A DNA stretch of 50,023 nt from a virus. The stretch lies in IMG/VR virus record IMGVR_UViG_3300045988_155579. One strand, 5' to 3'. Below are positions 6,339-26,041 of this stretch, one piece after another. Under the pieces are notes generated by a model. That model had not been told where the DNA came from and ran no database searches. It was given only the letters and a program-made list of their open reading frames with translations. Both the position numbers and the translations under genes were made by a program. Position 1 is the first letter of the stretch; each line of letters begins with the position of its first letter.

Positions 6339-7130
6339 CTACTTATCCCATGGGAACTGCTGAACGAAATCGACACCCATAATCCCTCGCAAGCTCGATT
6401 TCATAAAAATTGGAGTCTTTTGCTGCGCGGAACAGTATGCCAGCTCATCAATCCAGCTCTTTTCTGGAATAATCTTACCTTTCCGATTACCTGTTTCCGC
6501 ACCGACAATAATCCAATCTACACGCTGTTCCGGCGGCGTGTCGAAGTAATTTAGCCCGGTAAACGGTGCAAAAATCGGTTCGATGGAAACAAACGTCTTT
6601 GCCTTTCCACAGAAGAAATATTCCTGCATCGGATTTTCGCAAGTCGTCCCGTACCAGAATCGGTCATTGTTCAGCGGCAATATGCCCGCTTGAATCAGCT
6701 TAATATATCGTTTTGGATTCTTGGTCAGGAACAGGTAGCGATGCTGCGGCGCAGCTTTGCAAGCCTCAATTACCGCACTGATCCACTCCGTCGGCACCCA
6801 CTCGCCAAACAGATCTGCCATGCTGCACACGAAGATATCGCGCGGTTTCGTCCAGCGCATCGGCTGATTCAGCCTGTACCTATGAAATGTCGGTTTGAAC
6901 CCAAAGGGATACGGAGCATTTGTCGTCTTTCCGTCCAACCGCGTCACTTTCAACGGCTCGTTCAATTCAATGCAGGGCAAAGAACTACGGCACATCGCTG
7001 AATCATCGCTCTGGTCATGCCCTTCATAGCGTTTTGCCATGCCTCTGGCATAGCAATATAAACAACTGTGCAAACAGCCCGTAACAGGGTTCCATGTTGC
7101 ATCCGCCCAGTCGATTTTCGTTTTATCCAT
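6339..7130 (-). CDS. Phage Gp37/Gp68-family (DUF5131) radical-SAM-like protein
   Basis: The N-terminus KIDWADATWNPVTGCLHSCLYCYA is the family hallmark and contains a CX3CX2C cysteine triad. Confidence 0.85.
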   Translation of the reverse strand: MDKTKIDWADATWNPVTGCLHSCLYCYARGMAKRYEGHDQSDDSAMCRSSLPCIELNEPLKVTRLDGKTTNAPYPFGFKPTFHRYRLNQPMRWTKPRDIFVCSMADLFGEWVPTEWISAVIEACKAAPQHRYLFLTKNPKRYIKLIQAGILPLNNDRFWYGTTCENPMQEYFFCGKAKTFVSIEPIFAPFTGLNYFDTPPEQRVDWIIVGAETGNRKGKIIPEKSWIDELAYCSAQQKTPIFMKSSLRGIMGVDFVQQFPWDK

Positions 7131-7399: not shown

Positions 7400-9925
7400 T
7401 TACACCGCATTTTTCTCGTCGAGCAGGTCAAATAAGGTCGGCGCGGCGACCTGTGCTTCGGCCGCACGCATGTAGCCCACGCCGTCGCGGAAGTAGTCAA
7501 GGTTGAGCTCCACGCCGACACCTCGCCGTCCCATGTCCACCGCCAGCTTCGGCACGGTGAATAACCCTGCAAACGGGTCAAATACTGTATCGCCCGGATT
7601 GCTGTATCGGTTGATGAGCCTTTCTACAATGTCCAGCTGAAGCGGGCAGACGTGCATCTGCGCCCGCCGTTGGCTCTGTGTCGTATTCAGCGTCCGCATG
7701 CGATTGATGTCGTCCCATACTTCGTCTGACCAGCTTCCTGGCGCAACCACCATGAACGTAGCAGGGAGTTTGCCTTCCGCATCGAGCTTCTTTGCCAGTT
7801 CGACATGCTCCTCATAGCTATATACATTCTCTCTGCTGAACTGACGGTACAGCTTTTGCAGTTTGTCCGTCGGTGCAGTTGCCAGCTCGGCCTTTCCAAC
7901 CAGACGGTCGCCGCTGGAACGCCAATAGCCGTGCGCATCAATTTGCCATTGTGCGCGGGTGTAGTCCTCCTTGCTCTTGGCCACAGGCTCATCCGCATAA
8001 GCGCGGCTCGTGTCCGTGGGCAGCTTGCGGAACAGCAGAATGTATTCTGGGCATCCCACGCCCATCTTCGTTCCGTCCTTGCATTGCTCCGTCCAGCCGA
8101 GGCGGTAGGTCTGGTTGTTTTCCCTCACCACGTCGGTGACAACGGTGATCATCCCGAAATACTGGAATCCCGCTTTCATGTAATGCTCGATGCACAGTGC
8201 GTGAAACGGTTCCATTGTCGGCATGCCCGTCCCCGTTGCATTTCCGAAAAGTACCCTATCCTTGACGTGGCAGGCGAATACGCGCCCTGGCTTCAAGATG
8301 CGAAGCAGATTCGGCGACAGGAAATCCATCTGCTCGAAGAAGCGCTCCGTGTCCTCGTTGTGGCCGAAATCGTTATAACTTGGCGTATACTCATAGTGAT
8401 TGGAAAACGGGATGCTGGTAACAATCAAGTCAACGCTGTTATCTTCCATTCTCGCCGTTTCCTCTACACAATCAGCACGCACCGCTTTATACCGTTCTCC
8501 GCAAATTTCAAGCCGTTCTACGCCCATGCTTCTGCACATCCTCTCCATAATCAGACCGTCATGCAACCCGTATTTCTTGACGATGGCAACCATCTGACGT
8601 TGAAGCTCCTCATGCTGCCTCCATTTTTTGAGCAACGCTTCCTTGACCTGTGCTTCACTCTCGACATAAATAATGTCGATTACAACTTCTTCTGTTTGCA
8701 GGAAACGGTATATGCGATGAACAGCCTGTATAAAGTCGTTGAACTTATAATCAATTCCCAAAAAGATTGCTCTGTGGCAATACCGTTGGAAGTTGCAGCC
8801 CTGACCGCTGATTTCTTTCTTCGTTGCCAGCAGCCGTGTTCTTCCCTCCGAGAAATCCACCACACGCCGTTCCCGTTCGTCTAGATCCTGTGTACCGTAA
8901 ACCTCTACGGCCTCCGGCAATGCGTCCTTTATCGCATGGCGTTCGCTCTCAAGGTCGTGCCAGAGAATAAAATGATCTTCGGGCGCGCTGTTTACAATCT
9001 CGGCCATTTTGGCGACGCGCACGTTCAAACTCTCCCGTTTCTCTCGTGCTTCATCCTGAATGGATACCGATGCGTCACGGATGAGCTTGACCTGCCCGAA
9101 TTTATCCGTTCCCGCGCTCGAATGGTCAACAGACAGCTCATGCCAATTCACCGTCAGTTTCGGCAAATCATAGCCTTCGTCTCTATATCCCAAATCGCTC
9201 GGCTTTGAAATCAGCAGTGCCCAGCTCGCCACCCACAACCAGAACTCCTGCTCCTTGTGTGGATATAGCGTCAGATGATTTGCCTTCGTGCTGTCCCTCT
9301 GGAAAAAGCGCGTGAGCGCCTGGCCGGAATCCATCACTTCAAGAAATGCTGCATAATGAATCAATTCCTTATAACGGTTCGGCGACGGTGTAGCCGTACA
9401 GACCAGCTTATACTTTACGCCCCGGAATTTCTGTAAAAACGTTTGATAGGTCTTGCTTCCAAAGCTCCGCAGCACACTCGCTTCATCCAGCGCCACCGCA
9501 CAGAATTTCTTCGGGTCAATGTCTCCGTCGCGCACTCGTTCGTAGTTCGTCATCACAATCTCGCCGTCGTATGCATCCGCTTCAGCCTGCGTCCTGACGT
9601 ATGGCGGCGCTTCGTAGTGCAAAAGCGCAACCGCATCGCGGCTAAACTCCTGCTTCACGCCCAGCGGCAGCACGATCAACGCCTTCGCGTTCGGGTTATC
9701 ATTTACCCGTTCGTGCATAACAACCTGATGGCAAAATTCAATTTCCTGCGCCGTTTTGCCCAATCCAAAGCTCTCGAACAGTGCCCGCCGCCCTCCGGCA
9801 ATCGCCCATTGCACCGCATCTTTTTGATGGCCTTTCAGCTCCGGATTAAGCTGGCCTCTGTCGATTGCAAATCCGCTTTTCGGCGCAACAACAACCTTGC
9901 TTTTCAAAAAATCGGTGTAGTTCAT
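7400..9925 (-). CDS. SF2 (SNF2/DEAD-like) helicase fused to a beta-class N4/N6 DNA amino-methyltransferase
   Basis: The N-terminal half has GLGKT (motif I), DEAS (motif II) and QAVHRIYR (motif VI). The C-terminal half has DLIVTSIPFS (a DPPY-like motif IV) and FDPFAGLFTVP...GVGVEL (AdoMet motif I). Confidence 0.85.
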   Translation of the reverse strand: MNYTDFLKSKVVVAPKSGFAIDRGQLNPELKGHQKDAVQWAIAGGRRALFESFGLGKTAQEIEFCHQVVMHERVNDNPNAKALIVLPLGVKQEFSRDAVALLHYEAPPYVRTQAEADAYDGEIVMTNYERVRDGDIDPKKFCAVALDEASVLRSFGSKTYQTFLQKFRGVKYKLVCTATPSPNRYKELIHYAAFLEVMDSGQALTRFFQRDSTKANHLTLYPHKEQEFWLWVASWALLISKPSDLGYRDEGYDLPKLTVNWHELSVDHSSAGTDKFGQVKLIRDASVSIQDEAREKRESLNVRVAKMAEIVNSAPEDHFILWHDLESERHAIKDALPEAVEVYGTQDLDERERRVVDFSEGRTRLLATKKEISGQGCNFQRYCHRAIFLGIDYKFNDFIQAVHRIYRFLQTEEVVIDIIYVESEAQVKEALLKKWRQHEELQRQMVAIVKKYGLHDGLIMERMCRSMGVERLEICGERYKAVRADCVEETARMEDNSVDLIVTSIPFSNHYEYTPSYNDFGHNEDTERFFEQMDFLSPNLLRILKPGRVFACHVKDRVLFGNATGTGMPTMEPFHALCIEHYMKAGFQYFGMITVVTDVVRENNQTYRLGWTEQCKDGTKMGVGCPEYILLFRKLPTDTSRAYADEPVAKSKEDYTRAQWQIDAHGYWRSSGDRLVGKAELATAPTDKLQKLYRQFSRENVYSYEEHVELAKKLDAEGKLPATFMVVAPGSWSDEVWDDINRMRTLNTTQSQRRAQMHVCPLQLDIVERLINRYSNPGDTVFDPFAGLFTVPKLAVDMGRRGVGVELNLDYFRDGVGYMRAAEAQVAAPTLFDLLDEKNAV

Positions 9926-11472
9926 TGCGCTGCCTCCGTTTTTTCATCACCGCAAAGTTCCGGCAGATTCGCTCTGACCAACGCTGCCGGAATCGGCGGA
10001 CAAACAGCGTTGCCGCATCTGGCGACCTGCTCCGCCTTCGGATAAGCCTTTCCGTCCACATCTACATCAATGATGTAGTTTTCAGGGAATCCCTGCGCAT
10101 CAAAAAGCTCGCGCGGCGTCAACATCCGCAGCCCGATGTCCACAATCTGATATTTTTCTCCGCGCACCGTAACCAGTCCAAGCCTGTCTTTGGATGTAAT
10201 CGTCGGTGCGGGCTTCTCACAGGATGCCGAATTATCTCCATGTCCGTAATACTTGACCAGGAACGCTCGAACATCTCCAAAATGGCCAGCTCTGGCCGTA
10301 ATGGTGTTGAGCGGTTCATCTGCGCATTGCCCATCACAATTATTGTTGAACTGCGTCACATAGGCCGCGCACAGCGCATTATGGTCGATGGCCGTTACCG
10401 TCGGCAATGGAGCATCCGCCGCGCTGGCCGGACTGCTCGTTCCGTAGAACTTGCTGATAAATGCAGAAACCATTCCATATCGGTTTGAAGCATCCACGGT
10501 CATAATCGGTTTATCTACCGTCTGCCCGCGCACTTCGCCGCCCTGCTCATCGTGATACTGAATCATCATGGGCATGACTACGCCCGTGCCATGCCTGGCC
10601 GTGATCGTATCCAGCGGTTCTTCGATATCCTGTCCCCTGAAATTTTCACCACCATGATTGACTTGAATAATGAATGGCGACGGATTCTTCAAAACAAATT
10701 TTTCAATGCCTCTCGCAATTCTACGCATGGTCTTTTCCGAAAGTGGGCGAACAGCATGAATCCCGTACTGCTTGAATATTTCCTCGCTCGTCGCAAAGAT
10801 TGACGGGCATGGAAGATTGAAGTCCAGCACATCAGCTACCGGCACCCACGGTTTTTTCATTCCCGCCAGTGCCTCAAAGCTATCTGGCGCTGCATGCGTC
10901 GGTTCAGGCCAGATAATCGGTTTTCCGTCACAGCGTGCAATCAGGAAGAACCGTTTTCGAATGGTCGGCGCTCCATAATCGCATGCCCGCATCGTCCTAT
11001 ACTCGACCTTGTACCCTTGCCGTTCGAGCTGGCTGACGAATCGCCGGAAAGTTTCACCCTTATACCGAGGATCTGGTCGGTTATCCTTATCAAGCCGTCC
11101 CCAGTCCTGAAATTCTTCTACGTTTTCCAGCATGATAACGCGCGGATGCACTGCTTTCGCCCACTTTACCGCAACCCAGGCCAGCCCTCGAATATGCCTG
11201 CTGACAGGCTTTCCACCTTTCGCCCTGCTGTGATGCTTACAGTCAGGCGAAAACCACGCCAGCGCCACAGGCCGCCCCGCACACACCTTGACGGGATTGA
11301 CCTTCCAAACATCCTCCTGATAATGCTCGGTTGTCGGATGGTTTGCTCTGTGCATCGCAATCGCCGCCGGGTCATGGTTGATGGCAATATCCACGCTGCG
11401 GCCTATTGCCATTTCAATACCCGTTGATGCGCCGCCGCCACCTGCGAAGTTATCCACGACAATCTCGCTCAT
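9922..11472 (-). CDS. dcm: DNA (cytosine-5)-methyltransferase
   Basis: C5-MTase motifs in order: DNFAGGGG (I), FSPDCKHHS (IV, PC), MLENV (VI), QGFPENY (IX), GNAVCPP (X). Confidence 0.9.
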   Translation of the reverse strand: MSEIVVDNFAGGGGASTGIEMAIGRSVDIAINHDPAAIAMHRANHPTTEHYQEDVWKVNPVKVCAGRPVALAWFSPDCKHHSRAKGGKPVSRHIRGLAWVAVKWAKAVHPRVIMLENVEEFQDWGRLDKDNRPDPRYKGETFRRFVSQLERQGYKVEYRTMRACDYGAPTIRKRFFLIARCDGKPIIWPEPTHAAPDSFEALAGMKKPWVPVADVLDFNLPCPSIFATSEEIFKQYGIHAVRPLSEKTMRRIARGIEKFVLKNPSPFIIQVNHGGENFRGQDIEEPLDTITARHGTGVVMPMMIQYHDEQGGEVRGQTVDKPIMTVDASNRYGMVSAFISKFYGTSSPASAADAPLPTVTAIDHNALCAAYVTQFNNNCDGQCADEPLNTITARAGHFGDVRAFLVKYYGHGDNSASCEKPAPTITSKDRLGLVTVRGEKYQIVDIGLRMLTPRELFDAQGFPENYIIDVDVDGKAYPKAEQVARCGNAVCPPIPAALVRANLPELCGDEKTEAAQ

Positions 11473-19548: not shown

Positions 19549-19758
19549 TTAAGAGTGGCTATTCTCACCATCTTCTTCAATGATTTTCTCTGGCACTACG
19601 CCAAACAGCTTAGACAACCGCATAAGTGCTACCGCGTTTGGCAGGCAACGCCCGCTCTCCCATTGAGATACCGCTCCTACTGTCACGCCCGCTGCTTCTG
19701 CAACCTCTGTTTGCGTAAGCTTTCCTTTTTCTCGGAATTTCTTAATATTGCAAATCAT
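19549..19758 (-). CDS. cro: Cro-like XRE HTH regulator (69 aa)
   Basis: HTH segment LTQTEVAEAAGVTVGAVSQWESG. It is divergent from the repressor gene and has an AAAGGAGG RBS. Confidence 0.8.
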   Translation of the reverse strand: MICNIKKFREKGKLTQTEVAEAAGVTVGAVSQWESGRCLPNAVALMRLSKLFGVVPEKIIEEDGENSHS

Positions 19759-19853: not shown

Positions 19854-19882
19854 TTGACTTATCTTTTTTAGAAATGTAAAAT
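19854..19882 (+). promoter_or_regulatory. Repressor (lysogenic) promoter
   Basis: TTGACT (19854-19859), 17-nt spacer, TAAAAT (19877-19882). It is back-to-back with the early promoter. Confidence 0.6.
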
Positions 19883-19910: not shown

Positions 19911-20537
19911 ATGTTTTTGAACCGTTTGAAAGAGTTGCGTCAGAAAAACGGCGTTAAGCAAAAAGATGTCGCCGCTATGCTCGGTGTCACCGCTGGAGCC
20001 GTTTCCCAATGGGAGAGTGGGCGCGTAAATATCGACTGGCGCTGTGCCACAACACTCGCTGAAAAGTTCCATGTTACCCCTGAATACTTACTCGGCGAAA
20101 CCGACATCATCGACAGTGCTTCTATTCAGGCTCCTGCCGCTGTCCGAATCCCTGTCGTCGGTACAATCCGTGCCGGAATCCCGCTGGCGGCCATCGAGGA
20201 TATTGAGGACTGGGAGGAAATTCCAGCGGACATGGCAAAGAAGGGCGAGTTCGTTGCTCTGCGTGTCAAGGGCGATTCAATGCTTCCCGATATCAAAGAT
20301 GGAGATGTCGCAATCATTCGTCGGCAGGAAAGCATTGAAAACGGACAAATCGCCGCGGTCATTGTCAACGGGGAAGAGGCAACAATAAAAAAAGTCCGGC
20401 TTTTGCCGGACGGAATCATGCTGATCGGTCTGAATACCGAAGTATACGAGCCTCATTTCTATTCAAAGCAGGAAATTTCTGATCTTCCCGTTCGCATTTA
20501 TGGGAAGCTGGTCGAAGTACGAAGGAAATTCTATTGA
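19911..20537 (+). CDS. cI: cI/LexA-like repressor (XRE HTH + S24 autopeptidase domain)
   Basis: N-terminal HTH VKQKDVAAMLGVTAGAVSQWESG. The C-terminal S24 domain has GDSMLP (catalytic Ser) and ATIKKV (Lys). Confidence 0.9.
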   Translation: MFLNRLKELRQKNGVKQKDVAAMLGVTAGAVSQWESGRVNIDWRCATTLAEKFHVTPEYLLGETDIIDSASIQAPAAVRIPVVGTIRAGIPLAAIEDIEDWEEIPADMAKKGEFVALRVKGDSMLPDIKDGDVAIIRRQESIENGQIAAVIVNGEEATIKKVRLLPDGIMLIGLNTEVYEPHFYSKQEISDLPVRIYGKLVEVRRKFY

Positions 20538-20551
20538 GGAAGGTAACGCCA

Positions 20552-21106
20552 ATGAAGAAACTCATATCTATTGTCTCTTGGGTTTTGCTACTCATTCCGA
20601 TGATTTCTTTTGCGGAATCTTATCAGTTTGACGAACTACAGGAACTTTTCATTTCTTTGACTTCCAAAACAACCGCAACCGAATTTGAATCTGCTGTAAA
20701 AAAAACGGGGCTTCCCTATGCAAAGCAGGAATTTAATAAATCTGGTTCAGGAAAAGACCTTTCCTATGTTGTGGCTTTCACTGAGGGTGCGGCTCATTTC
20801 AAATATGCCGAATCTGGGGATAAGTTACATGTATCTTTTGATACTGGGAACAACTCGCTCCTTATGACTGCTCAATATTCAAACGCTCAAAAAGTAACAT
20901 CTGCCTTATTCTATCAGTATGGCGTGTGGTATTCTTTCAACTTTGACAAGGGAAACGATTATTCTGGCTACTACTACATTCATCATTTCGGTGAAGATGA
21001 CGGCATTGAGATAATCTACAATAACGGTTATCACCAAAAAACAAAATACGTTCCATATTCTTCTGCCGAAGATGTCATCAACGCCGTCATGACATACGAA
21101 GATTAA
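20552..21106 (+). CDS. Secreted/exported protein with an N-terminal signal peptide (candidate superinfection-exclusion moron)
   Basis: MKKLISIVSWVLLLIPMISFA is a signal-peptide-like N-terminus. GAGGAAGG RBS. It lies immediately after cI in an AT-rich segment. Confidence 0.6.
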   Translation: MKKLISIVSWVLLLIPMISFAESYQFDELQELFISLTSKTTATEFESAVKKTGLPYAKQEFNKSGSGKDLSYVVAFTEGAAHFKYAESGDKLHVSFDTGNNSLLMTAQYSNAQKVTSALFYQYGVWYSFNFDKGNDYSGYYYIHHFGEDDGIEIIYNNGYHQKTKYVPYSSAEDVINAVMTYED

Positions 21107-21252
21107 ACGTCATCCATTTTTTCAATTATTTTGCCAAAGTCGGCAAAATGGTCTATTCGAGAATTATTGATGATTCAAATTTTCATTGAACAATGATTTT
21201 TTCTAATCCCGGCAATCAAGATTTACCGATAAATTCATTTATCGTATTTTGG

Positions 21253-21281
21253 TTGACAAATTTCTCGATTTGTTGTATTAT
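21253..21281 (+). promoter_or_regulatory. Consensus-like promoter of the cargo operon
   Basis: TTGACA (21253-21258), 17-nt spacer, TATTAT (21276-21281), inside a 227-nt AT-rich intergenic region. Confidence 0.6.
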
Positions 21282-21333
21282 AGGCTAAAGAACTTATTGA
21301 CGCCAAAAATACAAAAACGGAGGAATTTTGTTA

Positions 21334-21966
21334 ATGGAAGAACACCTGAAACAGCTCTGCAATGAAAATCCGCTTCTGCTCACGACCATCCAAGGTGCGA
21401 TCTTCTCCGGCTACGAACAGGCCAAGAGATTTGTCATTCAAAACGGCTGTGAATCCATCCAGCGCGATGGTTATGCGCGGCACGTCTGCATTGAACCTTG
21501 CGTTTTTCGCGCTATTGAAGAAGCGCGATTTTCCGGTGTCACCCTTTCATGCCCCAACAACATCGGCAAAACCGCTAAGCATCTCGAAATACGGACTCCT
21601 CACGCAATCTTAATGATTGCAAGCGGACGCAATACGTCAAAACCACCCAAGGCGAAATACCGTCAGCAAACCATTGATCAATTTTATTATGGCCAGCAGG
21701 TTTTACCCGGTGTTTTTCAATCCGATGAGCTCTGTCCCCCGTTGTACATTATCACTCATGCGCCTGATCGCCGGAAGAACAGCGTCACTCCCGCAACAAT
21801 CTGCATCGGGCGTCCCAGCGTCGATCAGCTTTCATGGAGCTGTTTCTATAAATTCGACGATTTGGGCCTTGAGAACTACGCTACCGAAAACATCGCCGTC
21901 CGAGAATCTGTGTCTTTGAAAGAGACCGTCGTCAAAACCACTACGCTCTCTCTCAAAAAAGCCTGA
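21334..21966 (+). CDS. Unknown protein (210 aa), first gene of the cargo operon
   Basis: ATG preceded by a GGAGGA RBS. No recognisable domain. Confidence 0.65.
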   Translation: MEEHLKQLCNENPLLLTTIQGAIFSGYEQAKRFVIQNGCESIQRDGYARHVCIEPCVFRAIEEARFSGVTLSCPNNIGKTAKHLEIRTPHAILMIASGRNTSKPPKAKYRQQTIDQFYYGQQVLPGVFQSDELCPPLYIITHAPDRRKNSVTPATICIGRPSVDQLSWSCFYKFDDLGLENYATENIAVRESVSLKETVVKTTTLSLKKA

Positions 21967-21993
21967 TTCGCACCGTAAAGGAGGAACTTTATT

Positions 21994-23127
21994 ATGCCAG
22001 CCCCCACCACTATGTCCTGTCGTCTCACAGAAGGCAGAGAGTTGCGCGGGCTTTCCGTCGCCGAACTGGCTGAACAGATCGGAGTGACGCGCCAATCTAT
22101 TTATAAATATGAAAACGGCACTCAAGCTCCAAGTGAAGAAACGGTTGAGCGCATTCAAAAAGCGCTCAACCTTCCCGCTTCTTTCTTCATATACTCTTCC
22201 GCCATTCCAGATCTTTCGTCTCGTCCTATTTTTTTCCGCGACATGAAAACCAATGAAGAAAAAAATCGAAAAATGTCCTATCGCTGGCTACAGATTTTGC
22301 GCGAACAGGTTGAACGCTATGAAAATTATCTGGACTTTCCGCCAGTGCATTTGCCTGAAATCGAATTGCCGGATATTTTAGACCTAACCGACGAAGATAT
22401 CGACATCGCCGCCGAAAATCTGCGTCGGGCATGGGGATTGGGTGACGGTCCCATCGACAATGTAACCCAACTCCTAGAAAATAATGGATTTATCATTTTT
22501 AGAAAGTATCTGCCTGCGGAAAAAATGGATGCTTGTTCACTTGTTCTCAATGGACGTCCCTACATTCTTATCAACACCTATAAGCAAACCTGTTCTCGTG
22601 ATCTCATTAACCTTGCCCATGAATTGGGGCACGTTATTTTGCATCAAAATATTTCGAGCGATGTCTTTCTATCTAAAGCAGACTTTGAAAGAATCGAAAA
22701 ACAGGCATGGCGTTTTGCAAAATCCTTTCTGATGCCCCCTGCTATTTTTTCCGCTGAAGTTGGCTGTCCTACCTTAAATCGCTTTATCGCCTTAAAAAAG
22801 CGGTGGCGTGTATCTATTTCCGCCATGATTATGTACTGCCATGACCTCGAACTTATCGACGACGCAAGAAAGCAGTATTTTTTCCGCGAAATGACGCGTA
22901 TGCACATTCGGAAAGAAGAGCCCTTGGATAGCGAACTTCCAGTTGAGCAGAGTGCCTTGCTCAAAGATGCCGAAGAATTGCTTGTTGATTCTCAAATCTT
23001 CACCAGAACAAAATTATTTGAACTGTCGCGGCTCAACATTGGTGATTACTGCGAAATGATTGGATTACCAGAAGATCTTTTTGCTACGAAAACAGTCCGG
23101 CCTCAACTGCGAATTATTCAATCATAA
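21994..23127 (+). CDS. XRE-HTH fused to an ImmA/IrrE-family (COG2856, M78) zinc metallopeptidase
   Basis: N-terminal HTH LSVAELAEQIGVTRQSIYKYENG. HEXXH motif AHELGHVILH in the central domain. AAGGAGG RBS. Confidence 0.85.
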   Translation: MPAPTTMSCRLTEGRELRGLSVAELAEQIGVTRQSIYKYENGTQAPSEETVERIQKALNLPASFFIYSSAIPDLSSRPIFFRDMKTNEEKNRKMSYRWLQILREQVERYENYLDFPPVHLPEIELPDILDLTDEDIDIAAENLRRAWGLGDGPIDNVTQLLENNGFIIFRKYLPAEKMDACSLVLNGRPYILINTYKQTCSRDLINLAHELGHVILHQNISSDVFLSKADFERIEKQAWRFAKSFLMPPAIFSAEVGCPTLNRFIALKKRWRVSISAMIMYCHDLELIDDARKQYFFREMTRMHIRKEEPLDSELPVEQSALLKDAEELLVDSQIFTRTKLFELSRLNIGDYCEMIGLPEDLFATKTVRPQLRIIQS

Positions 23128-23141
23128 GAGAGGATTATTCC

Positions 23142-24143
23142 ATGAGCAACGATTTTCGTTTTCTGATGTATCAATCCGCCGAAGAAAATGTGAGTATCAA
23201 CGCCATCATCAAAGACGAAACAATTTGGCTTTCTCAGAAAGGCATGGCCGAGCTGTTCGGCTGTTCGACAGACAACATTTCCCTCCACCTAAAAAATATC
23301 TTTTCCGACGGCGAATTGACGAAAGATTCAGTTTCCGAGAAAATCTCGGTAACTGCCGCAGATGGTAAAAATTATCCTACTCAGTTCTACAATCTGGACG
23401 CGATTATCTCCGTCGGCTACCGCGTCAACTCCCGCCGCGCGACGCACTTCCGCATCTGGGCAACCAGCGTCTTGAAGGAATACATGACCAAGGGCTTCGC
23501 ACTGGATGACGAGCGCCTCAAGCAGGGAACGGCCGCGTTTGGCCACGACTATTTCCGCGAGCTGCTTGAGCGCGTCCGCTCGATCCGCGCCAGCGAACGT
23601 CGCATCTGGCAGCAGGTGACGGATATCTTCGCGGAGTGCAGCATCGACTACGATAAAAACGCCGCCGTTGCCCATGACTTCTACGCCATGATTCAGAATA
23701 AATTCCACTATGCCATCACGGGGCAAACCGCCGCTGAAATCATCTATGACCGTGCCGACCGCACCAAAGATCACATGGGGCTGACCACATGGAAAAACGC
23801 CCCGGATGGCCGTATTCTCAAATCGGATGTTTCCATCGCCAAGAATTATCTGGATGCGAAGCAGATTCGTCAGCTTGAGCGCACCGTCTCCAGCTATTTC
23901 GATTATATCGAGGATCTGATCGAGCGCGAAAATGCCTTCACGATGGAGCAGTTCGCCTCCAGCGTCAACGAATTTCTCGCTTTCCGCCGCTATGACATTC
24001 TGCCTGATAAGGGGCGCATTTCCGCCGCGGCCGCAAAAAAGAAGGCCGAAGCGGAATACGACGCTTTCAACAAAACGCAGCGCATCGTCTCCGACTTCGA
24101 CCGTGAGGTGCAGCGCTTGATCGAATCCGAAAAGCGCAAATAA
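23142..24143 (+). CDS. RhuM-family protein
   Basis: The segments TIWLSQKGMAELFG...NISLHLKNIF, YNLDAIISVGYRVNS..ATHFRIWAT and RASERRIWQQVTDIF match my recollection of the RhuM/virulence-protein family. Confidence 0.75.
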   Translation: MSNDFRFLMYQSAEENVSINAIIKDETIWLSQKGMAELFGCSTDNISLHLKNIFSDGELTKDSVSEKISVTAADGKNYPTQFYNLDAIISVGYRVNSRRATHFRIWATSVLKEYMTKGFALDDERLKQGTAAFGHDYFRELLERVRSIRASERRIWQQVTDIFAECSIDYDKNAAVAHDFYAMIQNKFHYAITGQTAAEIIYDRADRTKDHMGLTTWKNAPDGRILKSDVSIAKNYLDAKQIRQLERTVSSYFDYIEDLIERENAFTMEQFASSVNEFLAFRRYDILPDKGRISAAAAKKKAEAEYDAFNKTQRIVSDFDREVQRLIESEKRK

Positions 24144-24165
24144 ACATGTCTACTGGTTTGCACCA

Positions 24166-24193
24166 AACGTTTTGCCGTCGTTGGCAAAACGTT
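24166..24193 (+). terminator. Perfect 11-bp stem-loop after the cargo operon (possible terminator, no clear U-tract)
   Basis: aacgttttgcc (24166-24176) pairs with ggcaaaacgtt (24183-24193), with a 6-nt loop. Confidence 0.35.
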
Positions 24194-24314
24194 CAAATCC
24201 GTCGATTTCGATGGGTTTGAAAGAAGAAAGCGCATCTTTTGTGGTGCGCAATTTTTTGACAGTTTATTAGAACATACGTTCGTATTTTGGATAGTAGGAA
24301 GGGGTTGGGTTCTC

Positions 24315-25559
24315 GTGCCAAGGCAGCACCTCAAACGCCGAAAAGATGGGCGCTTCGCATGTCGATATCAAGGAAAATGGTTTTACGGTTTGACAGAAGG
24401 TGAAGCCTTTGCCGCCCGCGATGCTTATAAGCAAATGCTGAAGCAGGGCATCCAGCGCGATGCCGATAGTATGGATGTTAGGCATTACGCTGCCTCATGG
24501 CTTCCCATTCACAAAGCCGATGTCAGCAAAAAACACTATAACGATTGCGCCCATCATATCGACATTCTTTGTGACCAAATCGGCGACATGCTCATTAAAG
24601 ACGTTAAGCCATCCGATATTAAGGCCGTCTACAGCGCACACTACCTCGGTTTGAGTGCCAGTACAATCAAACGTGCCAAATGTCTTTTTTCTGCAATCTT
24701 CGAGACAGCTATTGAAGACGGTTATGCTACCGTTAATCCTTGTCGATCAAAACATGCCAAACCGCCCAAGGGTTCATCGGGTTCTCATCGAACAATCACA
24801 GACTCTGAACGGGCTTTGATTCACGAGTGCAACCACAGTTTCCGCGCCGCCGTCTACGTCATGCTCTATGCCGGCCTGCGTCGTGGTGAAGCCCTCGCGC
24901 TCAATATTGACGAAGATGTAGATTTTGAGCATCATGTTATTCATGTTCACCATGCCATTCACTACGAAAGCAACCAGCCTATCCTCGGCGATCCTAAGAC
25001 CGAAGCAGGTGAGCGTGAAATACCGCTTCTCTCCATTCTGGAAAATGAACTTCGCGGACTACACGGCCTACTTGCCCCTGCTTGCAAAAACGGCGGTCTG
25101 ATGTCTGAAAGCGCCTTCTCCAGCGCTTGGAATTCGTACCTCGGAACAATCGAACGAAAGCTGAACGGTCACCCTAAGCGTTGGCATCATCGCGGAGCAA
25201 AAAATCGAAATCACGACCCTATCCAGCTCCGCGTTGAAGCTCTCATCAAAGCAGGAAAAACAGAAGAGGCCGAAGTCCTTCGCTTGTCCGATTGGAAAAC
25301 ACTCTCTGTTCGCCCCCATGACTTTCGCCACAGCTACTGCACCATGCTTCGCGATGCCGGAACTGATCTCAAGCTCGCAATGAAATGGATGGGTCATGCT
25401 GATGAAAAAATGATTCTGAAAATTTATGACCATGTAACGGATTTTCGCACTGAGCAGGCGCTCTCCACTCTCGAAAAAATGACCTCTGGTAGTCAAAATG
25501 GTAGTCAAACAGAAAATCGCATCAGAAACTTTCAGCAATATCAGGAAAAACTCTCCTAA
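24315..25559 (+). CDS. int: Tyrosine site-specific integrase
   Basis: Catalytic signature RRGEALAL ... HDFRHSYCT ... MGHADEKMILKIYDHV (R, HxxR, H, Y). GTG start. Confidence 0.92.
   Translation: MPRQHLKRRKDGRFACRYQGKWFYGLTEGEAFAARDAYKQMLKQGIQRDADSMDVRHYAASWLPIHKADVSKKHYNDCAHHIDILCDQIGDMLIKDVKPSDIKAVYSAHYLGLSASTIKRAKCLFSAIFETAIEDGYATVNPCRSKHAKPPKGSSGSHRTITDSERALIHECNHSFRAAVYVMLYAGLRRGEALALNIDEDVDFEHHVIHVHHAIHYESNQPILGDPKTEAGEREIPLLSILENELRGLHGLLAPACKNGGLMSESAFSSAWNSYLGTIERKLNGHPKRWHHRGAKNRNHDPIQLRVEALIKAGKTEEAEVLRLSDWKTLSVRPHDFRHSYCTMLRDAGTDLKLAMKWMGHADEKMILKIYDHVTDFRTEQALSTLEKMTSGSQNGSQTENRIRNFQQYQEKLS
25489..25509 (+). repeat. Tandem arm-type repeat gtagtcaaaatggtagtcaaa (left of the attP core, inside the int 3' end)
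   Basis: Two GTAGTCAAA units with a 12-nt period. The 21-mer recurs at 25776-25796 with one mismatch. Confidence 0.8.
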
Positions 25560-25614: not shown

Positions 25615-25775
25615 GTTTTATCCGTTGTTTTTCATCCGGAAGACAGCGGATTTTTCTTATATATTCTTGATTTTTTCGTTTGCCATTTTGTTCTATTTCA
25701 GCACAACCCCCAGTCTTTCATTCTGGGCAAATAGGGATCGTTAGGGCGACCATAGGCAGTCTTCGACTTCTTGTT

Positions 25776-25810: not shown

Positions 25811-26041
25811 TTATTCCCGGCTTCGATCTATGAGATCGTCGATTCGGCATCCAAGCACATCCGCCATCTTGATAAGCACATCGACTCGCGGCGAATGAAC
25901 GCCACGCTCCCATCTGCTCACATCTTTCTGGCTGCATCCTAACGCGGCTGCCATCTGTCCTTGCGTCATACCCGCCGCCATCCGTGCCCGCGCAAGCGGC
26001 GAATCATTCCCGCGCTCTCGCGGAGCTTTATGCCCTTCCAT
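25811..26041 (-). CDS. XRE-family HTH protein (76 aa)
   Basis: HTH segment MTQGQMAAALGCSQKDVSRWERG. AAGAGGAAAA RBS. Confidence 0.75.
   Translation of the reverse strand: MEGHKAPRERGNDSPLARARMAAGMTQGQMAAALGCSQKDVSRWERGVHSPRVDVLIKMADVLGCRIDDLIDRSRE

What the first reader, a model, noticed from the sequence alone, without database searches (positions are those of the whole stretch)
21253..24193. Self-promoted three-gene cargo operon (unknown 210-aa protein, XRE-HTH/M78 peptidase fusion, RhuM-family protein) next to the integrase: candidate defence or toxin-antitoxin system
Seen in the sequence: a near-consensus promoter (TTGACA-17-TATTAT) sits in a 227-nt AT-rich spacer, independent of the cI promoter. 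The whole 20.5-23.2 kb stretch is visibly more AT-rich than the rest of the phage. Gene 2 fuses an XRE HTH to an HEXXH (AHELGHVILH) ImmA/IrrE-type domain. Gene 1 has no recognisable domain. A perfect 11-bp hairpin closes the unit before int. Established knowledge: Xre-COG2856 modules were predicted as toxin-antitoxin/abortive-infection modules. The RosmerTA antitoxin has this same HTH + Zn-peptidase architecture, paired with diverse unannotated toxins. RhuM-family genes and int-proximal prophage morons are enriched in defence islands. Inference: the phage repressor carries its own S24 autocleavage domain, so an ImmA-type anti-repressor is not needed for induction. That argues the fusion protein controls or senses for the unknown gene 1, acting as effector or toxin, in the lysogen.
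Basis: partly seen in the sequence, partly recalled or inferred. Interest (0 to 1): 0.78.

Follow-up and report, generated by a model that had tools for sequence, protein, structure and literature searches.

The report
Prophage RosmerTA toxin-antitoxin plus RhuM cassette
A gut-bacterial prophage carries, between its repressor and integrase, a self-promoted cassette holding a RosmerTA toxin-antitoxin pair (an already described anti-phage system) followed by a RhuM-family gene; it is a real but ordinary member of a known kind.

Summary
Three co-oriented genes (21334-21966, 21994-23127, 23142-24143) sit behind an 11/12 sigma-70 promoter (21253-21281) in an AT-rich stretch, and are followed by an 11-bp hairpin.

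Gene 2 is a full-length RmrA (PADLOC E 4e-104; HTH_3 + Peptidase_M78, HEXXH intact).

Gene 1 has no Pfam, PHROG or NCBIfam hit, but it is a divergent RmrT toxin:
- All 17 members of its small metagenome-only family hit PADLOC RmrT PDLC03933 (best E 1.2e-45).
- In 24 of 24 loci with readable downstream DNA, covering five lineages down to about 25% identity, an RmrA gene follows immediately.

So genes 1 and 2 form a RosmerTA system.

Gene 3 (RhuM, PADLOC candidate PDC-S05) is probably co-transcribed. It recombines independently and is absent from one diverged RosmerTA locus, so I read it as a second, stacked module.

The promoter is conserved in four diverged lineages, with an operator-like inverted repeat in its spacer. 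The hairpin lacks a U-tract; a canonical terminator lies 35 nt downstream.

The toxin's fold matches nothing solved and its target is unknown. One lead is that related RmrTs carry a clamp-binding-like QxxLF motif in a disordered loop, which fits pneumococcal RipA targeting DnaN. In gene 1 that motif is degenerate.

Verdict: new member of a known kind.

The parts
21128..21149 (.). Left boundary hairpin ATTTTGCC-AAAGTC-GGCAAAAT
   Evidence: Perfect 8-bp arms; -11.8 kcal/mol, z -4.5. Homology among sibling prophages with different upstream cargo begins here. TTTTGCC-N6-GGCAAAA occurs only twice in the window, here and at 24170 (expected 0.02).
21227..21244 (.). Palindrome CGATAAAT-TC-ATTTATCG just upstream of the -35 (possible operator or UP-like element)
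   Evidence: I5, 100% complementary. Kept in the window lineage but not in L021/L022.
21253..21281 (+). Sigma-70-type promoter TTGACA-17-TATTAT of the cassette
   Evidence: 11/12 match. The -35 and the TTGTTGTAnTAT -10 region are conserved upstream of g1 homologues in L009/L021/L022, L023 and L024/L025, although the flanks are unalignable.
21256..21273 (.). Inverted repeat ACAAAT-N6-ATTTGT inside the promoter spacer; candidate RmrA-HTH operator (inferred)
   Evidence: Read. An ACAA...TTGT-type repeat persists in the diverged lineages. The g2 HTH resembles 434-type repressors. Binding was not tested.
21334..21966 (+). g1: RmrT-class toxin (divergent member), 210 aa, cytoplasmic alpha/beta protein with a disordered C-terminal tail
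   Evidence: PADLOC RmrT PDLC03933 E 1.1e-5 for g1 itself; 17/17 family members hit, best 1.2e-45. hhalign 93.7% to the RmrT of E. coli phage Tritos. AF2 pLDDT 79.7, pTM 0.76. No fold match in the PDB or BFVD.
21994..23127 (+). g2: RmrA antitoxin/regulator, XRE HTH + M78 (ImmA/IrrE-type) Zn-peptidase with HEXXH + C-terminal domain
   Evidence: Pfam HTH_3 and Peptidase_M78. PADLOC RmrA E 4e-104, residues 8-368. NCBIfam spr1629-family antitoxin 200.7 bits, below the cut-off of 335. dN/dS 0.05.
23142..24143 (+). g3: RhuM-family protein (PADLOC candidate single-gene system PDC-S05), probably co-transcribed
   Evidence: Pfam PF13310 E 5.8e-105. PDC-S05 E 4.8e-156. 14-nt gap to g2 with its own RBS. 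Diverges independently of g1-g2.
24166..24193 (+). Right boundary hairpin AACGTTTTGCC-GTCGTT-GGCAAAACGTT (no U-tract)
   Evidence: A TTTTGC-N8-GCAAAA hairpin with a different loop follows g3 in every sibling locus.
24230..24257 (+). Terminator-like stem-loop GCGCATC...GGTGCGC followed by T6; probable true end of the transcription unit
   Evidence: Conserved with loop changes in all sibling loci, including those with an extra 95-aa ORF inserted before it. The whole 24144-24262 stretch folds at -52 kcal/mol, z -7.4.

Best explanation
The cassette is a lysogenic-conversion 'moron' that stacks two modules.

Module 1 (g1 + g2) is a RosmerTA system. g1 is a cytoplasmic RmrT toxin. g2 is the RmrA antitoxin, an XRE HTH fused to an M78 Zn-peptidase.

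Proposed working:
1. The strong conserved promoter drives the operon in the lysogen.
2. RmrA represses it through the inverted repeat in the promoter spacer and keeps RmrT inactive, probably with help from host ClpX, as in other RosmerTA systems.
3. Infection by another phage, or another stress signal, disturbs RmrA. RmrT is freed and arrests the cell, so the superinfecting phage is aborted.

The cellular target of this RmrT class is unknown. The best lead is the replication sliding clamp.

Module 2 (g3) is a RhuM-family candidate defence or toxin gene that rides on the same transcript.

Shown here: gene identities, family membership, obligatory g1-g2 pairing, promoter conservation, purifying selection on g2, modular recombination.

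Inferred: autoregulation, neutralisation, the trigger, abortive infection, ClpX involvement, the target.
For: Family membership:
- g2 matches RmrA over its full length, E 4e-104.
- g1's family matches RmrT in 17/17 members, best E 1.2e-45.
- hhalign of the family against the Tritos RmrT gives 93.7%.

Pairing:
- The toxin-then-RmrA order, with 20-40 nt gaps or overlaps, is seen in 24/24 readable loci from five g1 lineages.
- The same pairing holds for superfamily members in E. coli phage Tritos, Enterococcus phage Efs 1-1-1, Lacticaseibacillus phage R24.2, and plasmids of Zymomonas, Hoeflea and Roseomonas.

Sequence and selection:
- HEXXH is kept in homologues.
- g2 dN/dS is 0.05.
- g1 evolves about 4x faster at the protein level (dN 0.278 against 0.069), as is typical of toxin partners.
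- The promoter is conserved across lineages.

Location:
- The slot next door (cI to g1) carries the validated SNIPE defence nuclease in sibling prophages (PMC13190303). This is therefore a defence hotspot.

Literature:
- RosmerTA protects against phages and the rmrA deletion could not be transformed, which the authors put down possibly to toxicity (bioRxiv 10.1101/2022.05.11.491447).
- A phage-encoded RosmerTA defends E. coli (PMC10440598).
- RosmerTA makes clpX essential in S. pneumoniae and in Pectobacteriaceae (PMC13566846 and PMC12211083).
- Pneumococcal RipA binds the DnaN pocket (bioRxiv 10.1101/2025.09.02.673660).
Against: - g1's own PADLOC hit is weak (E 1.1e-5, partial). Membership rests on transitive, family-level evidence.
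- No toxicity, neutralisation or phage-protection data exist for this RmrT class from this host, and the host is unidentified.
- RmrT families are heterogeneous. The Kita toxin is a membrane depolariser, so mechanism cannot be transferred between classes.
- I could not obtain the RipA (Spr1630) sequence to test homology with g1.
- The clamp-binding-like motif that is clear in related RmrTs is degenerate in g1.
- The only RosmerTA from a Firmicute that I found studied in depth (RipAB) has been tied to competence, not to phage defence.
Confidence: 0.72

Rival explanations
1. g1-g2 is primarily an addiction or stress-response module. It would stabilise the prophage, or couple host physiology (replication stress, ClpX status) to growth arrest, and have no role in excluding other phages.
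For: - Pneumococcal RipAB, a Rosmer TA, is chromosomal and acts on competence via DnaN. No anti-phage role is reported for it.
- rmrA is essential wherever the system is present, which is classic addiction behaviour.
Against: - RosmerTA systems were validated as anti-phage in two independent studies, one of them phage-encoded.
- This cassette sits in a slot that elsewhere carries SNIPE, and it is followed by another defence-island gene.
- Addiction and defence are not mutually exclusive.
Confidence: 0.15
2. All three genes form one integrated system. RhuM would be the effector (or a second effector) controlled by RmrA, and g1 would be an accessory or sensor.
For: - There is a 14-nt gap and no terminator between g2 and g3.
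- g3 follows g1-g2 in two lineages (the window type and L021/L022).
- Against L022, the C-terminal third of g2 and g3 share one high-identity block (88-96%), while g1 and the rest of g2 are 60-75% identical.
Against: - The L011 RosmerTA pair lacks RhuM.
- RosmerTA in Tritos, R24.2, Zymomonas, Hoeflea and Roseomonas has no RhuM.
- g3 diverges to 86% while g1-g2 stay about 100% identical among siblings, and g3 is frameshifted in L002 without loss of g1-g2.
- RhuM is modelled as a single-gene candidate, and it is known from R-M/PrrC neighbourhoods.
Confidence: 0.1
3. g2 is a lysogeny regulator of the ImmR/ImmA or IrrE type, that is, a second immunity repressor or an anti-repressor protease that controls induction or excision. 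g1 would be an unrelated moron.
For: - It lies next to the integrase.
- It contains an HTH and an M78 peptidase domain.
- Some homologues in phages are annotated 'cI-like repressor'.
Against: - The resident cI has its own S24 autocleavage domain and a divergent cro-type switch.
- g2 is always coupled to an RmrT gene, also on plasmids with no phage functions.
- It matches RmrA models over the full length, including the C-terminal domain that ImmA lacks.
Confidence: 0.04

Closest known systems
RosmerTA (RmrT/RmrA) anti-phage toxin-antitoxin system (Millman et al. 2022; PADLOC and DefenseFinder models)
   Same: - Two co-oriented genes, with the toxin of unknown function upstream.
- The antitoxin is an XRE-HTH plus Zn-peptidase of about 380 aa; g2 matches 14 RmrA models, best E 4e-104.
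- The g1 family matches RmrT PDLC03933/34/38/40.
   Different: - g1 belongs to a small, metagenome-only branch: 23 representatives at 50% identity among 1.84 billion proteins.
- That branch scores only weakly against existing RmrT models.
- Here the pair is carried in a prophage moron with a third gene.
RipA/RipB (Spr1630/Spr1629) Rosmer TA of Streptococcus pneumoniae
   Same: - g2 hits the NCBIfam 'spr1629 family repressor/antitoxin' model end to end (200.7 bits).
- Same gene order and same antitoxin architecture.
- Related RmrTs carry a QxxLF clamp-binding-like motif in a disordered loop, which fits RipA binding the DnaN pocket.
   Different: - g2's score is below the equivalog cut-off of 335, so it is not an orthologue.
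- Homology of g1 to RipA could not be tested.
- g1's motif is degenerate.
- RipAB is chromosomal and linked to competence and ClpX, not to a prophage.
RosmerTA of Gordonia phage Kita (Ernits et al. 2023)
   Same: It is phage-encoded, has an RmrA-type antitoxin, and shows demonstrated narrow-spectrum anti-phage defence.
   Different: The Kita toxin (RmrT-D5) is a transmembrane membrane-depolariser. g1 is a soluble alpha/beta protein with no predicted TM segment and belongs to a different RmrT class.
ImmR/ImmA (ICEBs1), IrrE/DdrO and CapH/CapP HTH-repressor plus M78-protease switches
   Same: - Same two domain types. g2 also hits capP (E 2.7e-14) and capH (E 1.2e-9).
- The probable logic, a signal-activated protease relieving an HTH repressor, is the model for how RmrA may sense.
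   Different: - Those are two separate proteins that control an element's own induction or a CBASS operon.
- Here the domains are fused, carry an extra C-terminal domain, and are coupled to a toxin.
- The prophage's own repressor is LexA-like (S24).
RhuM family / PADLOC PDC-S05
   Same: g3 matches end to end (PF13310 E 5.8e-105; PDC-S05 E 4.8e-156).
   Different: None in sequence terms. The family's function is only predicted: a toxin domain in R-M/PrrC neighbourhoods (PMC3710099). Its placement directly behind a RosmerTA pair is particular to this prophage group.

Membership tests
RosmerTA | Antitoxin RmrA: N-terminal XRE-type HTH fused to an M78/ImmA-type Zn-peptidase with HEXXH, about 360-400 aa | tested here: met
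   Pfam HTH_3 at residues 14-64 and Peptidase_M78 at 186-278. PADLOC RmrA PDLC03948 E 4e-104, residues 8-368 of 377. AHELGHVILH is present.
RosmerTA | Adjacent co-oriented gene matching an RmrT toxin model | tested here: met
   g1 alone: PDLC03933 E 1.1e-5, PDLC03934 E 5.5e-4. Its family: 17/17 members hit PDLC03933, best 1.2e-45. hhalign to a bona fide RmrT gives 93.7%. Caveat: PADLOC's own per-model score thresholds were not available.
RosmerTA | Conserved two-gene operon (pair kept together across genomes) | tested here: met
   24 of 24 loci with readable downstream sequence, in five lineages down to about 25% g1 identity.
RosmerTA | Toxin arrests growth and is neutralised by RmrA (rmrA cannot be deleted alone) | not testable with these tools
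   Needs expression experiments. Indirect only: strong purifying selection on g2 (dN/dS 0.05).
RosmerTA | Confers resistance to phage infection | not testable with these tools
   Needs plaque assays. The context (SNIPE in the neighbouring slot of siblings, RhuM downstream) is suggestive only.
RipAB (spr1629/spr1630) subfamily | Antitoxin reaches the NCBIfam NF052239 equivalog cut-off (335 bits) | tested here: not met
   200.7 bits. Five other RmrAs from cultured elements also score only 187-243 bits.
RipAB (spr1629/spr1630) subfamily | Toxin homologous to Spr1630 and binding the DnaN hydrophobic pocket | not tested
Related RmrTs have QLSLF/QYNLF/EISLF in a disordered loop. At the same register g1 has Y-G-Q-Q-V-L-P.
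RhuM family / PDC-S05 | Full-length match to PF13310 / PDC-S05 models | tested here: met
   PF13310 350.6 bits against a cut-off of 33.7. PDLC04868 E 4.8e-156, residues 4-330.
ImmR/ImmA-type anti-repressor switch | Separate HTH repressor and M78 protease genes that control the element's own induction; the element's repressor lacks autocleavage | tested here: not met
   The domains are fused in one 377-aa protein. The prophage repressor has Peptidase_S24 (E 2.1e-24) with a divergent cro-type promoter pair. Cleavage of cI by g2 was not testable.
Phage moron (autonomous cargo transcription unit) | Own promoter, own terminator, deviant base composition, presence/absence or swapping among related phages | tested here: met
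   Promoter and terminator-like sites. GC trough. Boundary hairpins and cargo swapping among sibling prophages.

The most novel reading that the evidence does not exclude
The RmrT class to which g1 belongs (PADLOC PDLC03933/34/37/38/40, about 205-235 aa, a fold without a solved relative) may be a non-enzymatic sliding-clamp poison. It would dock into the DnaN hydrophobic pocket through a QxxLF-type short linear motif. That motif sits in a disordered loop right after the only superfamily-invariant element (P-x-K-A-x-Y/F-R).

The toxin would be held in check by RmrA together with ClpX. In the g1 branch the conserved basic C-terminal tail (LSLKKA-COOH) would serve as the ClpX tag.

The gut-phage branch would then be a variant with a remodelled clamp-binding motif (..QQVLPGVF..), tuned to its host's clamp or to the clamp or replisome of an invading phage.
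Probability: 0.2. Interest if true: 0.6.

Novelty: new member of a known kind. Interest (0 to 1): 0.35.

Why it matters
It adds a prophage-borne, gut-Firmicute branch to RosmerTA. It also shows that general annotation libraries miss the toxin entirely, while defence-specific models catch it only through its relatives.

The locus illustrates a modular defence hotspot between repressor and integrase, where SNIPE, a secreted protein, RosmerTA and RhuM are swapped among siblings.

The side observation of a clamp-binding-like motif across the RmrT superfamily, if confirmed, would extend the single pneumococcal result (RipA targeting DnaN) to a widespread class of defence toxins. It would also explain why RosmerTA makes ClpX essential in distant bacteria.

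Tried and rejected
- Fold identification of g1. AF2 models of g1 (pLDDT 79.7) and of a Lactobacillales RmrT (pLDDT 79.2) gave no significant Foldseek match in the PDB or BFVD (best E 0.03-0.5, TM below 0.3). A profile search against PDB sequences found nothing.
- PD-(D/E)xK nuclease idea. Many weak fold hits were PD-(D/E)xK nucleases, but I rejected the idea. The would-be (D/E)xK position is hydrophobic or unconserved. N76, H83 and E85 are not kept outside the g1 branch; only P104 and R110 are superfamily-invariant.
- General libraries. Pfam, NCBIfam and PHROGs gave nothing for g1 or its family.
- Host identification. Two scans of GTDB species genomes found no relative of g1.
- Known phages. 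Nucleotide search against GenBank phages matched only 671 nt of the integrase gene at 87%. tblastn of g1 against phages found nothing.
- Word-indexed protein search with the family profile returned only 6 proteins, so context had to come from metagenome scans.
- Link to RipA. The Spr1630 sequence was not retrievable and Piotrowski 2009 is not held. The Lactobacillales search returned Enterococcus, Lactococcus and Lacticaseibacillus but no named pneumococcal protein.
- RNA elements. There are no Rfam families or tRNAs in the window, so there is no RNA antitoxin or tRNA att site.
- The 11-bp hairpin as the terminator. Rejected in favour of the downstream stem plus T6.
Full report
**1. What is in the sequence**

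- g1: 21334-21966, 210 aa, with a GGAGG RBS at 21319-21323.
- g2: 21994-23127, 377 aa, RBS GGAGG.
- g3: 23142-24143, 333 aa, RBS GAGAGGA.
- A tyrosine integrase: 24315-25559 (Pfam Phage_integrase).

Upstream lies a classical switch.
- A cI-like repressor with HTH_3 + Peptidase_S24 (19911-20537).
- A divergent cro-like HTH gene (19549-19758, minus strand).
- Facing promoters at 19854-19882 (+) and 19815-19787 (-).
- A 190-aa signal-peptide protein (20534-21106) that overlaps the cI stop codon.

The promoter TTGACA-17-TATTAT at 21253-21281 is the best sigma-70 match in 19.4-26.2 kb (11/12). The 227-nt spacer around it is 30% GC. The lowest-GC 2.8-kb window of the entire 50 kb starts at 20401 (0.43 against 0.529 +/- 0.032). 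That trough comes from the 190-aa gene, the spacer and g2. g3 (0.52) has ordinary composition.

The 11-bp perfect hairpin is at 24166-24193 (-16.2 kcal/mol) and is not followed by a U-run. A canonical terminator-like stem plus T6 lies at 24230-24257. The whole g3-int spacer folds into three consecutive hairpins (-52 kcal/mol, z -7.4).

**2. Identity of the genes**

g2 carries HTH_3 and Peptidase_M78. It matches 14 PADLOC RmrA models over its full length (best E 4e-104, residues 8-368). It also matches phrog_2439 and the NCBIfam 'spr1629 family repressor/antitoxin' model (200.7 bits, below the equivalog cut-off of 335).

g3 is a full-length RhuM protein (PF13310, E 5.8e-105) and equals PADLOC candidate PDC-S05 (E 4.8e-156).

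g1 has no Pfam, PHROG or NCBIfam hit. It gives weak hits to three RmrT models (E 1.1e-5 to 2.8e-3).
- An exhaustive HMMER search of 1.84 billion representatives found only 23 relatives, nearly all about 210 aa.
- The 10 full-length representatives checked (P0005-P0016) are known only from metagenomes.
- Scanned individually, all 17 aligned members hit RmrT PDLC03933 (best E 1.2e-45). 13 of them also hit PDLC03938 and PDLC03934.
- A profile-profile comparison links the family to the gene upstream of RmrA in E. coli phage Tritos (93.7%), and that gene is itself an RmrT by PADLOC.

g1 is therefore a divergent member of one RmrT superfamily. That superfamily also occurs in front of an RmrA gene in these elements:
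- Enterococcus phage Efs 1-1-1
- Lacticaseibacillus phage R24.2
- plasmids of Zymomonas, Hoeflea and Roseomonas

**3. Context test**

I collected 25 loci carrying a g1 homologue from metagenomes and viral contigs.
- In all 24 with readable downstream DNA, an RmrA homologue follows within a few tens of nucleotides.
- This includes lineages where g1 identity has fallen to 62% (L009, L021, L022), 39% (L011), 25% (L023) and about 30% (L024/25).
- Across those lineages g2 identity is 89, 62, 59 and 41% respectively.
- g1 thus evolves much faster than g2 (dN 0.278 against 0.069 versus L022), while g2 is under strong purifying selection (dN/dS 0.05).

RhuM follows the pair in the window's prophage group and in L021/L022, but not in L011. 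It is also absent from the cultured-element loci whose downstream annotation was read (Tritos, R24.2, Zymomonas, Hoeflea, Roseomonas).

Among sibling prophages g1-g2 are about 100% identical, while g3 drops to 86%. Its N-terminal about 130 codons are the most divergent (68-71% nt). In L002 g3 is split.

g1-g2 is therefore the conserved functional pair. g3 is a separate module sharing the transcript.

**4. Regulatory signals**

Upstream regions of four diverged lineages no longer align, except for one element:
- TTGACAAATTTCTCGATTTGTTGTATTAT (window)
- TTGACAAATTTGCTAATTTATTGTATTCT (L022)
- TTGACAAATACGAACAAAAGGTGTAGAAT (L023)
- TTGACAAAACGGCAGAATTGTTGTAGTAT (L024)

The promoter is thus conserved. 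Its spacer contains an ACAA..TTGT-type inverted repeat (window: ACAAAT-N6-ATTTGT, 21256-21273). I propose this as the RmrA-HTH operator; this is an inference, and binding was not tested.

**5. Cassette boundaries and the neighbourhood**

TTTTGCC-N6-GGCAAAA occurs exactly twice in the window, at 21129 and 24170, bracketing the three genes (expected 0.02). In every sibling locus a TTTTGC-N8-GCAAAA hairpin with a different loop sits at both places. Homology between siblings with different upstream cargo starts at the left hairpin.

The slot between cI and that hairpin is variable. It holds:
- the 190-aa secreted protein (window, L003, L006, L007, L013, L016);
- a SNIPE/T5orf172 protein (L004, L008);
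- a shorter SNIPE protein plus a reverse ORF (L002);
- two reverse ORFs (L001, L005).

SNIPE is an experimentally validated membrane nuclease defence (PMC13190303). Some siblings carry an extra 95-aa ORF between the right hairpin and the terminator. The region is therefore a modular defence/moron hotspot.

**6. Structure and mechanism of the toxin**

The AF2 model of g1 (pLDDT 79.7, pTM 0.76) has three N-terminal helices, a six-stranded sheet and a disordered tail (185-210). The AF2 model of an Enterococcus relative (pLDDT 79.2, pTM 0.78) has the same elements in the same order as far as the sheet, but ends in a long C-terminal helix (190-219) instead of a disordered tail. Neither finds a significant match in the PDB or BFVD.

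Within the g1 branch N76, H83, E85, P104, Y109, R110, G159, W168 and K208 are (nearly) invariant. Across the superfamily only P104 and R110 (motif VPxKAxYR) survive. This argues against a conserved catalytic centre, and I reject the PD-(D/E)xK idea that weak fold hits suggested.

About 9 residues after that motif, related RmrTs carry a clamp-binding-like peptide:
- SQLSLF in Zymomonas
- QQVFAF in Hoeflea
- LN[KR]Q[YF]x[LI]F in about 35 Lactobacillales proteins
- EISLF or EIDLF in the Lacticaseibacillus group
- QLVLDYF in P0025

In the Enterococcus model this peptide lies in a 105-132 loop without secondary structure and with pLDDT below 50 at 117-125. That is what a short linear motif looks like.

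Two cautions apply:
- I could not obtain RipA's sequence, so I do not know that it belongs to this RmrT class.
- In g1 the equivalent register reads Y-G-Q-Q-V-L-P, which keeps only the hydrophobic pair.

The clamp model for g1 is therefore a lead (about 20%), not a finding.

RosmerTA presence makes clpX essential in S. pneumoniae and in three Pectobacteriaceae, and clpP essential in E. coli E101 (PMC13566846, PMC12211083). The g1 branch ends in a conserved basic tail ([ILV]x[LVI]K[KR]x-COOH). From memory, this resembles the MuA-type ClpX C-terminal signal; I did not test it.

**7. Comparison and verdict**

The g1-g2 pair meets every sequence-level criterion of RosmerTA. The functional criteria (toxicity, neutralisation, phage protection) cannot be tested here.

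It is not an orthologue of RipAB by the NCBIfam cut-off. It differs from the Gordonia phage Kita system in toxin class: Kita's toxin is a membrane depolariser. It is not an ImmR/ImmA-type induction switch, because the domains are fused, a toxin partner is always present, and the resident cI has S24.

The main refinement is that this is a RosmerTA pair plus an independently evolving RhuM gene, not one three-component system.

This is a new member of a known kind. Interest is moderate to low (0.35), lifted slightly by the superfamily-wide clamp-motif lead and by the clean example of a swap-prone prophage defence hotspot.

Noticed in passing
window 20534-21106; sibling loci L001-L008 between the cI gene and the g1 promoter: The slot between cI and the RosmerTA cassette is a variable cargo site. 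The window has a 190-aa signal-peptide protein that overlaps the cI stop; it has no family hit except a weak phrog_35183 match. Siblings carry SNIPE/T5orf172 (427-449 aa), a shorter SNIPE protein plus a reverse ORF, or two reverse ORFs. The secreted protein may be a superinfection-exclusion factor, by position only.
   Followed up: partly
window 21129-21148 and 24170-24189; all sibling loci: TTTTGC(C)-loop-(G)GCAAAA hairpins bracket the cassette in every variant. The arms are conserved and the loops differ (CAAAGTCG, GGGCATCA, CGTCGTTG, GCATCCCA, CACCCTTG). They have no U-tract, so they are not canonical terminators. They could be module-junction or recombination sites, RNA 3'-end stabilisers, or a protein-binding palindrome.
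   Followed up: partly
window ~22700 (inside g2) and 23142-23540 (g3 N-terminus): The cassette is mosaic. Against L022, g1 and the first two thirds of g2 are 60-75% identical in nucleotides, but the last third of g2 plus g3 are 88-96% identical. Against L004/L006, g1-g2 are about 100% identical while the g3 N-terminal domain falls to 68-71%. So there is a recombination breakpoint inside g2 after the peptidase core, and RhuM has a hypervariable N-domain.
   Followed up: partly
RmrT relatives: L032:1201-1890, L033:1501-2151, L029:1286-1993, L030:1337-1993, P0036-P0074: A clamp-binding-like pentapeptide (QLSLF, QYNLF, QYDLF, EISLF, QVFAF) is conserved about 9 residues after the invariant PxKAx[YF]R motif. 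It sits in a loop that AF2 leaves unstructured. This fits the reported DnaN targeting by pneumococcal RipA. I did not find it mentioned in the papers read.
   Followed up: partly
window 21886-21966 (g1 residues 185-210): The disordered C-terminal tail of the g1 branch ends in a conserved basic-hydrophobic motif (LSLKKA, LRLKQS, IRVKRAQ, IRIKSV ...). It may be a ClpX tag or a contact or pseudosubstrate for RmrA. This is speculation.
   Followed up: no
L001, L002, L006, L008 between the right hairpin and the terminator (e.g. L006:12903-13190): Some sibling prophages carry an extra 95-aa ORF, with a very basic N-terminus and a hydrophobic C-terminal segment, inserted exactly between the boundary hairpin and the terminator that precedes int. 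It is absent from the window.
   Followed up: no
window 7400-9925 (-), 9922-11472 (-), 6339-7130 (-): The phage encodes two DNA methyltransferase-like proteins: a 516-aa C5-type protein, and an 841-aa protein with a C-terminal MTase region. It also encodes a 263-aa protein matching PADLOC candidates PDC-M41B/PDC-M30B (E 3e-41). These are probable anti-restriction or other cargo, outside the finding.
   Followed up: no
L003, L004, L018 downstream of int: In several metagenomic contigs a second, unrelated integrase in opposite orientation, with its own repressor and replication genes, directly follows this prophage's int. This suggests tandem prophages or a shared integration hotspot. The host species is unidentified, and the relatives come from human gut metagenomes.
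   Followed up: no
window 25811-26041 (-) and 25620-25651: Beyond int there is a strong terminator-like hairpin (14 pairs) and a small XRE-HTH gene on the minus strand. The window then continues with minus-strand phage genes, so it looks like a circularly permuted or complete phage genome rather than a prophage with host flanks. No tRNA or Rfam element is present in the window.
   Followed up: no
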